From the human T2T-CHM13v2.0 reference genome, Homo sapiens: a DNA stretch of 64,000 bases. The stretch is from the NCBI RefSeq assembly GCF_009914755.1, contig NC_060927.1; one strand, 5' to 3'. Position numbers and translations under genes: made by a program. The notes under the pieces are model-generated. The model saw only the letters and a list, made by a program, of their open reading frames with translations, was not told the origin of the DNA and did no database searches. Positions 3,538 through 29,253 of this stretch are shown piece after piece. Position 1 is the first letter of the stretch. Every line of letters starts with the position of its first letter.

Positions 3538-4607
<1,070 letters not shown>

Positions 4608-9203: not shown

Positions 9204-9350
9204 CTGCCAGAAAATGAAATGTTCCCGGATAATATTCTTCACAGCTTCGTTGCTCCACACATCGCGGTTGAGGCACTGACATGCAAAGTCTTGAACATTT
9301 TGAATGTTTATCATCAGCCACTTATTTTGCATCTGGCCACACTCTTTGGC
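9204..9350 (-). CDS. UBXN7: UBXN7 coding exon 6 (147 nt; UAS domain; AKECGQMQNKWLMINIQNVQDFACQCLNRDVWSNEAVKNIIREHFIFWQ)
   Basis: Lies inside ORF 9156..9356(-). Acceptor CTTGCAG|GCC, donor CAG|GTGAGA. Phase 0 to 0. Confidence 0.97.
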
Positions 9351-15301: not shown

Positions 15302-15779
15302 TACATTTTATTCTTTCTCCAAGCAACTACTATAACTTGAAATGAATGTCACACTCTCTCTCTCCATCAAAGACAAACATATGTATTATATTCACTGTTA
15401 TTATATATATGTGTTTGTGTGTGTTTGTTTTACGTTATTTGTTTATAGTCTGTTTCTCCTACTAGATTATAAACGCTACAATGGCAAGGATTTTATATAA
15501 TTTACCACTATCTCCCTGTGGCAGAAACTGCTTATAGGTACCAAATAACCCATTCTCCCCTTGTCCCTCTTACTTATAGAACCTCCAGTTTTTAACTAAG
15601 CATCTGGATTTCCTAGTGTCCCTTGCAAATGGGTGTAGCCATGCTGCCAAGTTATAGTAGATGGAATGTAGACAGAAGTGCTGGGTACAACTTCTAGGTT
15701 GTTCCCTTCAAGGGAAATTTGTACCCTTATCAGCTCCTCCCTCTTCCATGCTGTTTATTTTTTTTTAAGTGAAAGCAAG

Positions 15780-15785
15780 TTTATT
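15780..15785 (-). terminator. MER41 R-region AATAAA, sense to UBXN7 intron 5
   Basis: tttatt on the + strand, followed on the - strand by 13 nt and then A9. Confidence 0.5.
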
Positions 15786-15908
15786 AAGAAAGTAAAGGAA
15801 TAAAGTATGGCTATTCCATAGGCAGAGCAGCCCAAGGGCTGCTGGTTGCCAATTTTTATGTTTATTTCTTGCTTATATGCTAATCAAGGAGTGGATTACT
15901 TATGAGTT

Positions 15909-15938
15909 TTCCAGGAAAAGGTTGGGCAGTTCCGAGAA
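15909..15938. promoter_or_regulatory. Tandem GAS (STAT) motifs in MER41 U3
   Basis: TTCCAGGAA (15909-15917) and TTCCGAGAA (15930-15938) both fit TTCNNNGAA, at the position of the MER41B tandem GAS sites. Confidence 0.65.
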
Positions 15939-16060
15939 CTGAGGGCTCCTCCTCCTTTTTAGACGATACAGGGCAACTTCCTGATGTTGCCATGGCATTT
16001 GTAAACTGCCACTGCACTGGTGGGAGTGGAGCAGTGAGGATGACCAGGTCACCCTCATCA

Positions 16061-16635
16061 CCATGTTGGTTTTGGGGGATTTTAGCCAGCTTCTTTCCAT
16101 GTTGGTTTTGGGGGGTTTTAGCCAGCTTCTTTCCATGTTGGTTTTGGTGGATTTTAGCCAGCTTCTTTCCATGTTGGTTTTGGGGGATTTTAGCCAGCTT
16201 CTTTCCATGTTGGTTTTGGGGGGTTTTAGCCAGCTTCTTTCCATGTTGGTTTTGGGGGGTTTTAGCCAGCTTCTTTCCATGTTGGTTTTGGGGGGTTTTA
16301 GCCAGCTTCTTTCCATGTTGGTTTTGGGGGATTTTAGCCAGCTTCTTTCCATGTTGGTTTTGGGGGATTTTAGCCAGCTTCTTTCCATGTTGGTTTTGGG
16401 GGGTTTTAGCCAGCTTCTTTCCATGTTGGTTTTGGGGGATTTTAGCCACAGCTTCTTTCCATGTTGGTTTTGGGGGGTTTTAGCCAGCTTCTTTCCATGT
16501 TGGTTTTGGGGGGTTTTAGCCAGCTTCTTTCCATGTTGGTTTTGGGGGGTTTTAGCCAGCTTCTTTCCATGTTGGTTTTGGGGGATCTTAGCCAGCTTCT
16601 TTCCATGTTGGTTTTGGGGGATTTTAGCTTCTTTA
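16061..16635. repeat. 36-bp VNTR, about 16 copies, inside MER41 U3
   Basis: Unit CCATGTTGGTTTTGGGGG(A/G)TTTTAGCCAGCTTCTTT. One copy has a 2-nt insertion near 16448 and the last copy is shortened. Confidence 0.95.
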
Positions 16636-17311
16636 CTGCAACATGTTTCATCAGCAAGGCCTTCATGACCAGTTTCTTGTGCTGACCTCCTATCTCATCC
16701 CATGACTTAGAATGTCTAACCTTCTGGGAATGCAGCCCACTAGGTCTCAGCCTTATTTTACCGAGCCCCTATTCAAAATGGAGTTGCTCTGTTTTAAATG
16801 CTTCTGACATTTCCTCCCTCCCTTTTACAAGAGAACCCTTAATCCTAAGGGTTGTAGAGGGAAAAAGATTCAACTTCCGTAACTTCTTCATGCTTAATAG
16901 GGACGATGGTATTCCTGTCTATTAGATCTCTTGCATTCAGAGTAGAGAGGACCTCAGTCTGAAAGCATCTGTATGGCGAGCGCCATTCCTAACTCTTGAG
17001 TCCCAACAGAAGGTGGTATCCTTCAGCCAACTGGTGCTCACAGATGATTTTCCTTTGGGTTGGGGGTATCTTCGGTATCATCCCTTCTGTGATTCGCCAG
17101 AAAGATGTTACTGGGCCCCACCACTTAACCAAAGTTAGCCTTTGGGTTGGGGGTTTCCTCAGTATTGTCCCTTCTGTGGTCGCCAGAATGATGTTACCGG
17201 AAAGGGGTCCGGATCCAGATCCCAAGAGAGGGTTCTTGGATCTAGTGCAGGAAAGAATTCAGGGCGAGCCTATAGAGTAAAGTGAAAGCAGGTTTATCAA
17301 GAATGTGAAGG

Positions 17312-17598
17312 TCATGCCTGTAATCCCAGCACTTTGGGAGGCCAAGGCGGGTGGATCACGAGGTCAGGAGATCGAGACCATCCTGGCTACCAGGGTGAAA
17401 CCACATCTCTATTAAAAAATACAAAAAATCAGCTGAGCGTGGTGGCGGGCGCCTGTGGTCCCAGCTACTCAGGAGGCTGAGGAAGGAGAATGGAGTGAAC
17501 CTAGGAGGTGGAGCGTGCAGTGAGGCAAGATAGCGCCACTGCAGTCCAGCAGTCCAGCCTGGGCGAAAGAGCGAGATTTCATCTCAAAAAAAAAAAAA
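17312..17598 (+). mobile_element. Slightly 5'-truncated AluY-type element inserted in the MER41 5' R region
   Basis: TSD AAGAATGTGAAGG at 17299-17311 and 17599-17611. Confidence 0.92.
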
Positions 17599-18075
17599 AA
17601 GAATGTGAAGGAATGAAGAACAGCCACTCCATAGGCAGAGGAGCCTTCCATGCTGTTTAGTAAGCAAACATGGTGGTAAGGCAACTTGAATCATGCAGAC
17701 AAGGGCAAGCAAGACCTAGGGGATGGCAGAACAAGACAGAAAAAAATTCTGCAACTCTAATAACTTTACAGAGCTAATCATCCTAATAGCCTGGACTTCC
17801 ATCTTGCTTAAGCTACTGTTTGTTTGTGGTGGGGTGTTCCAAGATGGCCAAATAGGAGCAGCTGCAGTCTGCAGCTCCCAGCATGATCAATGCAGAAGAC
17901 GGACGATTTCTGCATTTCCAACTGAGGTACCTGGTTCATCTCACTGGGACTGGGTGGAGAGCGGGTGCAGCCCACGGAGGGCGAGCTGAAGCAGGGCAGC
18001 GTGCCGCCTCACCTGGGAAGTGCAAGGGGTCGGGGAAATCATTTCCCTTTCCTAGCCAAGGGAAGCCGTGACAGA

Positions 18076-29140: not shown

Positions 29141-29253
29141 TGTTTCAAAGCTGCCTTTATGCATCAAATCAATGGGTGGCCGGAATAGATCTGCAAGGGT
29201 AGTTAATTTCTTATCGATAGCTCCTCCATTTCTTAATTCTTGTTCTTGCCGAA
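29141..29253 (-). CDS. UBXN7: UBXN7 coding exon 5 (113 nt; IRQEQELRNGGAIDKKLTTLADLFRPPIDLMHKGSFET)
   Basis: Acceptor ATTATAG|TTCGG, donor ACA|GTAAGT. Phase 1 to 0. Confidence 0.96.

What the first reader, a model, noticed from the sequence alone, without database searches (positions are those of the whole stretch)
15743..17659. MER41 endogenous retrovirus copied as an mRNA by L1 machinery (processed ERV retrocopy)
Seen on the minus strand: the element has no 5' U3. It starts at GCTCCTCTGCC (17644), and the equivalent base in the 3' LTR (15831) lies 29 nt downstream of a TATA-like CATAAAAA (15860), i.e. at the expected transcription start. It then runs R-U5, PBS, only about 380 nt of internal sequence, PPT and U3-R. 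It stops 13 nt after AATAAA in an A-tract, with no 3' U5. A 15-bp TSD (CTTCCATGCTGTTTA) flanks it at a CT/AAAC endonuclease-like site. Known: retroviral integrase leaves 4-6-bp TSDs and two complete LTRs, whereas this mRNA-shaped structure is the hallmark of L1-mobilised HERV-W processed copies. Inference: a MER41 transcript was retrotransposed in trans by L1 ORF2p, so this copy records the MER41 start and polyA sites. I do not recall this being described for MER41, and repeat annotation would probably show it as unrelated fragments.
Basis: partly seen in the sequence, partly recalled or inferred. Interest (0 to 1): 0.8.

Follow-up and report, generated by a model that had tools for sequence, protein, structure and literature searches.

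The report
L1-made retrocopy of spliced MER41 RNA
This is a DNA copy of a spliced messenger RNA from the ancient MER41 retrovirus, pasted into a UBXN7 intron by LINE-1 machinery, and it belongs to a class of hundreds of such copies, although published reviews name HERV-W as the only human retrovirus family copied this way.

Summary
On the minus strand the element reads R-U5, PBS, 382 nt of interior, PPT, U3-R and A9. It has no 5' U3 and no 3' U5, and an exact 15-bp target-site duplication flanks it.

- **Spliced source.** The short interior is an exon-exon junction. Unspliced relatives carry ...CTTTGG|GTAAGT at the break and ...TTCCAG|ATATCACC before the 3' part. Five other human loci carry the same junction, and all five start at R.
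- **Shared 5' end.** 34 other copies at unrelated loci begin within 17 nt of the same base, about 29-31 nt after a conserved CATAAAAA.
- **Class size.** 271 places have the R end followed by an A-run, against 0 for the reversed control and 3655 R ends in all.
- **R-only copies.** In a sample of 28 of those places, 22 are about 66-nt R-only copies, many with their own duplications.
- **Family.** The LTR carries published MER41B marks.

The searchable literature calls HERV-W the sole L1-mobilised HERV group, and I found no description for MER41. The mechanism is known; the family, the spliced form and the R-only form appear to be new.

The parts
17645..17659 (-). 5' copy of the 15-bp target-site duplication (TAAACAGCATGGAAG in element orientation)
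   Evidence: family D5: 15/15 identical to 15743-15757
17601..17644 (-). 5' R, first part. The element begins here with GCTCCTCTGCC and has no U3 upstream.
   Evidence: (D2). The same start is seen in 34 other copies.
17312..17600 (+). Later Alu-like insertion inside the 5' R, antisense to the element. Its 11-bp duplication CCTTCACATTC lies at 17601-17611 and 17301-17311. The name Alu is recalled.
   Evidence: This stretch matches many unrelated places in the flanks of other loci.
17280..17311 (-). 5' R, second part, ending in CACTT. The poly(A) signal here reads GATAAA.
   Evidence: (D4). The 5' and 3' R copies match at 54 of 65 positions.
17192..17279 (-). U5 (88 nt), ending ...GGTAACA
   Evidence: ordinary LTR copies align to this stretch directly after their R
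17167..17185 (-). PBS-like site TGGCGACCACAGAAGGGAC. A second, decayed copy lies at 17080-17099 within the 87-nt tandem duplication of the leader.
   Evidence: (D3, D6). The tRNA-Arg assignment is recalled and not tested here. Frith 2025 lists Arg for the MER41E interior.
17020..17191 (-). Leader, exon 1 of the spliced RNA, ending ...GGCTGAAGG at the exon junction
   Evidence: Of 12 unspliced relatives, 11 have GT and 1 has GC right after ...CTTTGG.
16810..17019 (-). 3' interior, exon 2, starting ATACCACC and including the polypurine tract AAAAGGGAGGGAGGAAA (16810-16826)
   Evidence: All 3 unspliced relatives examined have ...TCTTC(C/T)AG immediately before this point.
15833..16809 (-). U3 of the 3' LTR, starting TGTCAG
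16061..16628 (-). 36-bp x 15.7 tandem array inside U3, with 97% matches between units
   Evidence: (D1). In one search other LTR copies align one shared stretch of about 36 nt to both edges of the array.
15909..15938 (-). Two GAS-type motifs, TTCTCGGAA and TTCCTGGAA, 21 bp centre to centre
   Evidence: Schmid & Bucher 2010 state this spacing for the MER41B consensus (passages).
15870..15895 (-). Match to the published MEME motif M2, which 'resembles MER41B' (23 of 26)
   Evidence: 1 match in the window; none of 100 shuffles gave a match
15853..15860 (-). TATA-like CATAAAAA, 29 nt before the R start
   Evidence: It is conserved in 21 of 23 U3-bearing copies, 28-33 nt upstream.
15767..15832 (-). 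3' R (66 nt) with AATAAA at 15780-15785, ending in CACTT; no U5 follows
15758..15766 (-). Poly(A) tail remnant, A9
   Evidence: The same junction occurs at 271 places genome-wide.
15743..15757 (-). 3' copy of the target-site duplication
   Evidence: D5

Best explanation
A MER41-type provirus or proviruses were transcribed from the LTR start site, about 29 nt after a TATA-like box. The RNA was spliced from a leader donor (...CTTTGG|GTAAGT) to an acceptor about 210 nt before the 3' LTR (...TTCCAG|ATATCACC). It was cleaved and polyadenylated 13 nt after the AATAAA in R.

This roughly 1-kb mRNA (R-U5-leader / 3' interior-U3-R-An) was then reverse-transcribed at a nicked chromosomal site by LINE-1 ORF2p (target-primed reverse transcription). 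That produced a promoterless 5' end, an A tail and a 15-bp target-site duplication in what is now a UBXN7 intron. Later an Alu-like element inserted in the 5' R, and one 36-bp U3 segment expanded to about 16 tandem units.

**Shown:** the anatomy, the recurrence of both ends and of the junction at other loci, and the duplications.

**Inferred:** that L1 was the enzyme (from the duplication length, the A-rich target starts, 5' truncations and poly(A)); the splicing (from GT/AG at the break in unspliced relatives); and the order of later events.
For: 1. **Anatomy and the exact 15-bp duplication:**
2. **Shared 5' end.**
   - Of 28 distinct other leader-bearing loci, 7 start at the same base plus or minus 5 nt with unrelated upstream flanks, 19 have U3, and 2 are unclear.
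   - All 5 junction-bearing loci start there.
   - Of 28 sampled poly(A) ends, 22 are R-only copies that start there.
3. **Shared 3' end.**
   - 7 of 29 other U3-R loci end in CACTT plus an A-run with unrelated downstream flanks and no U5.
   - Genome-wide there are 271 places, against 0 for the control, among 3655 R ends (control 77).
4. **Independent duplications.**
   - Full-length copies on C2 and C9, each about 16-17 bp with 2 mismatches (C2 also has one indel).
   - Spliced copies L067 (17 bp, 1 mismatch) and L069 (18 bp, 2 mismatches).
   - 5'-truncated copies L029 (14/14) and L072 (16 bp, 2 mismatches).
   - R-only copies L076 (12/12), L074 (12/12), L086 (14 exact), L085 (12 exact) and others.
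   - Most of these start AAA or AAAA.
5. **Splice.**
   - 11 of 12 unspliced relatives have GT at the donor and 3 of 3 have AG at the acceptor.
   - L065 reads exactly ...CTTTGG|ATATCACC.
   - 5 of 39 other scored places span the junction, and all 5 are R-start copies. No junction-bearing copy with a 5' U3 was seen.
6. **Conserved TATA-like box:** 21 of 23 copies.
7. **MER41B marks:**
Against: - **Target site.** It is AC/TAAAC, or CT/AAAC if the T is not part of the duplication. This is only a partial match to the L1 consensus TT/AAAA quoted.
- **Tail.** It is only 9 A long.
- **Divergence.** The duplication is perfect, yet the two R copies differ at 11 of 65 positions. This is a mild tension. 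It is explained if the source provirus's LTRs had already diverged, but I did not test that.
- **Junction.** This copy's junction is 3 nt shorter and carries one change relative to the five others (GGCTGA-AGG against GGCTGACTTTGG). A small later deletion has to be assumed.
- **Empty site.** No orthologous empty site could be examined.
- **Enzyme.** L1 itself is inferred.
- **Unpaired copy.** For one R-start locus (L047) no 3' end was found in the 6.2 kb fetched.
- **Interior content.** No Pfam domain was found in the roughly 4.1-kb 'intron' of one unspliced copy, so I cannot say which genes the splice removes.
Confidence: 0.92

Rival explanations
1. An ordinary integrase-made provirus that later lost its 5' U3, its 3' U5 and most of its interior by three separate deletions. 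The flanking 15-bp repeat would then be chance or microhomology.
For: Old ERVs are often rearranged. This copy has suffered later events: an Alu-like insertion and a tandem expansion.
Against: - The same 5' base, the same 3' base plus A-run and the same interior junction recur at many unrelated loci with different flanks.
- The duplication abuts both ends exactly and is 15 bp long. Frith 2025 lists a 4-bp duplication for the MER41E-type ERV (table).
Confidence: 0.02
2. An L1-made retrocopy of an UNSPLICED transcript from a source provirus that already lacked the interior. The source could have been a re-integrated spliced genome or a provirus with a genomic deletion at those points.
For: The product would look identical. 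Six copies share the junction, so one or a few short master loci could have produced them.
Against: - None of the 5 other junction-bearing places has a 5' U3, so no such master was seen among the 40 scored places.
- This copy has two 87-nt leader units and the five others have one. It matches them at only 74-77%, against up to 85-88% for the best unspliced copies. At least two lineages would therefore need the same deletion at GT/AG boundaries.
Confidence: 0.06
3. The element is not MER41 but another member of the HERV-W/HERV-9 supergroup, for example a HERV-W processed pseudogene. In that case it would already be known.
For: - The structure is the same as that of HERV-W processed pseudogenes.
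- MER41 and HERV-W are placed in one supergroup.
- No Dfam or Repbase library was available to me.
Against: - The LTR carries the MER41B-like M2 motif (23 of 26) and two GAS sites 21 bp apart, as published for MER41B.
- The LTR layout is U3 about 410 nt without the array, R 66 and U5 88. This does not fit LTR17, which is 780 nt with R at 256-326.
- The R-end 19-mer occurs 3655 times, far more than the 213 HERV-W loci reported.
Confidence: 0.02

Closest known systems
HERV-W processed pseudogenes (Pavlicek et al. 2002, as summarised by Grandi et al. 2016, PMC5016936; passages seen)
   Same: - The 5' LTR is reduced to R-U5 and the 3' LTR to U3-R.
- Both have a poly(A) tail, a variable long duplication, 5'-truncated members and an inferred L1 origin.
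- Splice-lacking variants among processed copies have also been reported for HERV-W (the pre-gag intron; PMC6995185).
   Different: - The ERV group differs: here a MER41-type LTR of about 560-620 bp, there LTR17 of 780 bp.
- Here the splice removes essentially the whole interior.
- Most members of the class in my sample (22 of 28) are R-only copies of about 66 nt, a form I did not find described for HERV-W.
- The target motif of this copy is only partly TT/AAAA.
Ordinary L1-made processed pseudogenes (retrocopies) of cellular mRNAs
   Same: Both are intron-less cDNA copies running from the transcription start to the poly(A) site, with an A tail, 7-20-bp duplications and no promoter.
   Different: The template is a retroviral transcript, so the copy carries a complete U3 (promoter and enhancer sequence, including the GAS pair) at its 3' end.
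MER41 proviruses and solo LTRs (Dfam MER41A-G and MER41-int; Schmid & Bucher 2010; Frith 2025)
   Same: The LTR, leader and 3' interior sequences are the same, at 72-88% identity over stretches of at least 100 nt.
   Different: This copy has no 5' U3 and no 3' U5. It has poly(A) and a 15-bp duplication instead of full LTRs with a short duplication.

Membership tests
ERV processed pseudogene (criteria quoted in Grandi 2016) | The 5' LTR starts at R (R-U5, no U3) | tested here: met
   the element starts at 17644, the base equivalent to 15831 in the 3' LTR
ERV processed pseudogene (criteria quoted in Grandi 2016) | The 3' LTR ends at R (U3-R, no U5) | tested here: met
   the LTR match ends at CACTT (15767), whereas other LTR copies continue into U5
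ERV processed pseudogene (criteria quoted in Grandi 2016) | Poly(A) tail after R | tested here: met
   A9 at 15758-15766; the same junction occurs at 271 places against 0 for the control
ERV processed pseudogene (criteria quoted in Grandi 2016) | Variable-length duplication (5-15 bp), longer than an integrase duplication | tested here: met
   15/15
ERV processed pseudogene (criteria quoted in Grandi 2016) | TT/AAAA insertion motif | tested here: inconclusive
   This copy has AC/TAAAC or CT/AAAC. Most duplications of sister copies start AAA or AAAA.
MER41 (MER41B-like LTR) | Two GAS sites 21 bp apart, and the MER41B-derived M2 motif (Schmid & Bucher 2010) | tested here: met
   GAS centres 21 bp apart; M2 matches at 23 of 26 and no shuffle gave a match
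MER41 (MER41B-like LTR) | Alignment to the Dfam or Repbase MER41A-G and MER41-int consensus, and assignment to a subtype | not testable with these tools
   No repeat library is held, so the subtype is left open
MER41 (MER41B-like LTR) | tRNA-Arg primer binding site | not tested
   A PBS-like 19-mer is present. Its match to tRNA-Arg is recalled. Frith 2025 lists Arg for the MER41E interior.
HERV-W (LTR17/HERV17) | 780-nt LTR with R at 256-326 | tested here: not met
   Here U3 is about 410 nt without the array, R is 66 nt and U5 is 88 nt
Integrase-made provirus | Two complete LTRs and a 4-6-bp duplication | tested here: not met

The most novel reading that the evidence does not exclude
MER41 is a second human ERV group whose transcripts L1 mobilised, and by count a larger one than HERV-W. 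By the strict 25-mer test, several hundred retrocopies survive, in four forms:
- full-length, about 5 kb;
- spliced, about 1 kb;
- 5'-truncated;
- R-only, about 66 nt, which is the most frequent form.

The R-only copies run from the LTR start site to the LTR's own poly(A) site. Together these copies are a fossil cDNA record of the promoter, splice sites and poly(A) site of a retrovirus that entered the simian ancestor. They contradict the published statement that HERV-W is the sole HERV group mobilised by L1.
Probability: 0.6. Interest if true: 0.7.

Novelty: new member of a known kind. Interest (0 to 1): 0.6.

Why it matters
**Generality of L1 mobilisation.** Reviews of the field state that HERV-W is the only HERV group copied by L1 (Grandi & Tramontano 2017, abstract). 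A MER41 class of comparable or larger size would show that L1 mobilisation of ERV transcripts is more general. It would also reopen the question of why only some groups were substrates.

**A record of MER41 transcription.** The retrocopies fix the transcription start, a donor and acceptor pair, and the poly(A) site of an extinct virus without any RNA data.

**Annotation and enhancer studies.** MER41 LTRs are widely counted as interferon-inducible enhancers. About 7% of R ends in my pattern count (271 of 3655) belong to retrocopies, and most of those are 66-nt R-only pieces with no U3. Longer retrocopies, like this one, carry U3 only at their 3' end. This affects age estimates from LTR pairs, copy counts and the interpretation of 'truncated MER41' annotations.

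**This locus.** It places a complete U3 with two GAS sites, and an AATAAA, in sense orientation inside a UBXN7 intron.

Tried and rejected
- **Large fetch.** I used smaller fetches instead. Only 4 R-start loci were extended. Three gave a 3' end with an A-rich tail, and L047 gave none in 6.2 kb.
- **Cutting loci.** In one search the tool could not cut out loci, for the same reason.
- **Pfam scan of an unspliced copy.** I scanned the interior of the C2 copy as 18 stop-to-stop frames and as 6 read-through frames with X at stops. No family was found, so I cannot say whether the acceptor is the env acceptor or what the intron held.
- **Count of 36-nt units.** A substitution-only search for the unit in other LTR loci found none at up to 9 mismatches. 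The statement that other copies have about one unit therefore rests on the overlapping BLAST alignments.
- **Scripted duplication search.** It found nothing for 6 of the 7 poly(A) loci. Their 5' ends probably lie outside the 1.5-kb flanks, or the duplications have decayed. It also found nothing for 11 of the 20 loci, although several of those show decayed repeats by eye.
- **Papers.** Pavlicek et al. 2002 (PMC155283) is not held, and I did not see Costas 2002. Either may mention other families.
- **Deleted-provirus reading.** Considered and rejected; see the rival explanations.
- **Template switching.** L1 reverse transcriptase jumping between the two R copies could in principle produce R-only copies. 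This cannot be told apart from short LTR-only transcripts with these data.
Full report
**1. What is there**

I number the element q1-q1917 in its own (minus-strand) orientation, from window position 17659 down to 15743. Read that way, the stretch is:

| Window position | Feature |
|---|---|
| 17659-17645 | Target-site duplication, TAAACAGCATGGAAG |
| 17644-17601 | R, starting GCTCCTCTGCC |
| 17600-17312 | Alu-like insertion, antisense to the element, with its own 11-bp duplication CCTTCACATTC |
| 17311-17280 | Rest of R, ending in CACTT |
| 17279-17192 | U5 (88 nt) |
| 17185-17167 | PBS-like 19-mer |
| to 17020 | Leader, containing an 87-nt tandem duplication |
| 17019-16810 | 3' interior (210 nt), ending in a polypurine tract |
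| 16809-15833 | U3, starting TGTCAG and including a 36-bp x 15.7 array at 16628-16061 |
| 15832-15767 | R |
| 15766-15758 | A9 |
| 15757-15743 | Second copy of the duplication |

The duplication is 15 of 15 identical. There is no U3 at the 5' end and no U5 at the 3' end.

**2. Is it MER41?**

No repeat library was available, so I tested the name against print. Schmid & Bucher 2010 (PMC2897888; passages and Table 1 seen) give a 26-nt MEME motif that 'resembles MER41B'. They also state that the MER41B consensus has two GAS sites 21 bp apart.
- The motif matches 15870-15895 at 23 of 26 positions, and none of 100 shuffles gave a match.
- TTCTCGGAA and TTCCTGGAA lie 21 bp centre to centre.

The layout does not fit HERV-W's LTR17, which is 780 nt with R at 256-326. 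Here U3 is about 410 nt without the array, R is 66 nt and U5 is 88 nt. The subtype is left open.

**3. The ends recur elsewhere**

The window's own genome could be searched.

*3' ends.* With the U3-R-A9 end as query, 40 places were scored out of 3026 first-look candidates. Ten of the 39 other places align into the A-run. In the 29 other loci cut out, 7 (L007, 008, 015, 020, 023, 025, 029) end in CACTT plus A-rich sequence, with unrelated downstream flanks and no U5. The other 22 do not show this ending, and most continue into U5.

*5' ends.* With the leader as query, there were 28 distinct other loci:
- 7 (L032, 033, 034, 035, 038, 047, 052) begin at q1828-1833, the same point as this element (q1829), with unrelated upstream flanks;
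- 19 have U3 upstream;
- 2 are unclear.

*Pairing the ends.* I extended four R-start loci by 6.2 kb. Three reach a U3-R end with an A-rich tail, 4.8-5.5 kb from their start. Two of them (C2 and C9) have clear, decayed duplications of about 16-17 bp, and C8 is less clear. The fourth (L047) showed no 3' end in the piece fetched.

**4. The short interior is a splice junction**

Alignments of unspliced relatives stop at q637 on the leader side and start at q640 on the 3' side.
- Just past the break, 11 of 12 relatives read ...GGCTGACTTTGG|GTAAGT or a near variant with GT. One has GC.
- Just before the 3' part, 3 of 3 read ...TTAATCTTC(C/T)AG|ATATCACC.

A query spanning the junction found 5 of 39 other scored places that align straight across it: C12:98319539, C4:81105370, C20:47066998, C15:56154578 and C1:165019949.
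- All five start at q1825-1829.
- Four run on to the R end, and three of those have an A tail. One (L065) is cut off within U3.
- L065 reads exactly ...CTTTGG|ATATCACC, and the others are near variants.
- This window's copy reads GGCTGA-AGG|ATACCACC, which is 3 nt shorter before the junction.
- L067 has a 17-bp duplication with 1 mismatch, L069 an 18-bp one with 2 mismatches, and L066 about 9-10 bp.

None of the junction-bearing copies has a 5' U3. This copy has two 87-nt leader units and the other five have one. It is only 74-77% identical to them, against up to 85-88% for the best unspliced copies. At least two source lineages therefore used the same donor and acceptor.

**5. Size and make-up of the class**

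The R end plus A6 (a 25-mer, up to 2 mismatches) occurs at 271 places, 56 of them exact. The reversed control gives 0. The 19-nt R end alone occurs at 3655 places, with a control of 77. About 7% of R ends are therefore followed by poly(A). Both counts are lower bounds at this stringency.

I fetched the first 28 exact places not already seen.
- Twenty-two are nothing but R, from q1817-1834 to CACTT (61-80 nt, mostly about 66), plus an A tail: 6 of the first 8 and 16 of the next 20.
- For 12 of these 22 a script found a flanking repeat directly abutting both ends. Examples are L076 (12/12), L074 (12/12), L086 (14 exact) and L085 (12 exact). Two of the 12 (L083, L090) are short and A-rich, and therefore weak.
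- The other six are:
  - L072, a 451-nt 5'-truncated copy with a 16-bp duplication (2 mismatches);
  - L089 and L094, truncated in U3;
  - L084, with U3 running to the edge of the fetched piece;
  - L080, which abuts an Alu-like sequence;
  - L075, an inverted arrangement that I did not resolve.
- L029 is a 663-nt 5'-truncated copy with a 14/14 duplication.

Most duplications begin AAA or AAAA. Taken together, long duplications, A-rich target starts, A tails and 5' truncation are the pattern of L1 target-primed reverse transcription. L1 itself remains an inference.

**6. Start site**

Thirty-four other copies (7 + 5 + 22) begin within q1817-1834, most of them at q1825-1830. In 21 of 23 U3-bearing copies, CATAAAAA (up to 1 mismatch) starts 28-33 nt upstream of that point. 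The R-only copies are most simply transcripts that started at the LTR promoter and used the LTR's own poly(A) signal, either from solo LTRs or by premature use in a 5' LTR. A jump of the reverse transcriptase between the two R copies cannot be excluded.

**7. Literature**

I ran six searches:
- MER41 + processed pseudogene: 14 papers;
- HERV-W, processed pseudogenes, LINE-1 and 'other HERV', at least three of the four terms: 112 papers, 20 listed;
- MER41 + LINE-1-mediated: 2 papers;
- MER41 + target site duplication: 10 papers;
- endogenous retrovirus, processed pseudogenes, R-U5 and U3-R: 7 papers;
- a wider HERV search: 29 papers, 15 listed.

I read passages only in PMC5753468, PMC4724089, PMC5537654, PMC6995185, PMC11905727, PMC2897888, PMC5016936, PMC11359688, the 2026 bioRxiv preprint, PMC5356313 and PMC3538585.
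- None describes MER41 copies made by L1.
- Vargiu 2016 note that they did not separate processed pseudogenes from proviruses.
- Frith 2025 places the entry of all MER41 subtypes in the simian ancestor.
- Pavlicek 2002 is not held, and I did not see Costas 2002. Supplements were not consulted.

Absence from print is therefore likely but not established.

**8. Verdict**

This copy is more precisely a retrocopy of a spliced MER41 mRNA. It is one member of a class that includes full-length, spliced, 5'-truncated and, most numerous, R-only copies. The mechanism is the known one for HERV-W and for cellular processed pseudogenes. The family and two of the forms appear to be new.

Not tested: an orthologous empty site, alignment to Dfam, the tRNA match of the PBS, and the identity of what the intron removed (Pfam found nothing).

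Noticed in passing
Genome-wide; examples at L070, L071, L073, L074, L076-L079, L081-L083, L085-L088, L090-L093, L095-L097: These are R-only retrocopies, about 66 nt long. They run from the LTR start site to the LTR poly(A) site, carry an A tail and often have their own 12-18-bp duplication. They make up 22 of 28 sampled places out of 271 R-end-plus-poly(A) places. They look like retroposed LTR-only transcripts. I found no description of them.
   Followed up: partly
window 16061-16628: A 36-bp unit is repeated 15.7 times at 97% identity inside U3. In other LTR copies a single stretch of about 36 nt aligns to both edges of the array. This is therefore a local and probably recent expansion, and it may vary in length among people.
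   Followed up: partly
window 17301-17611: An Alu-like element (a name I recall), 5'-truncated and antisense to the ERV copy, sits inside the 5' R. It has an 11-bp duplication, CCTTCACATTC. It was inserted after the retrocopy.
   Followed up: partly
window 17052-17201; also L048 (C11:126877xxx): An 87-nt leader segment containing the PBS-like site is tandemly duplicated here and in many unspliced relatives. It is single in the five other spliced copies and appears three to four times in L048.
   Followed up: partly
window 15743-17659, relative to UBXN7 (exons at 9204-9350 and 29141-29253, minus strand): The retrocopy lies in sense orientation in a UBXN7 intron. It brings an AATAAA, a complete U3 with two GAS-type sites and a TATA-like box. 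I did not examine whether it affects UBXN7 transcripts.
   Followed up: no
L075 (C1:202862044-202863374): Two R-containing segments lie in inverted orientation around an A-run. I did not resolve this structure.
   Followed up: no
L033 + L061 (C2:173984055-173989193): The interior of this roughly 5-kb R-to-poly(A) copy gave no Pfam domain in any sense frame. The translated frames include Alu-like stretches. The unspliced source may have been largely non-coding by the time it was copied.
   Followed up: partly
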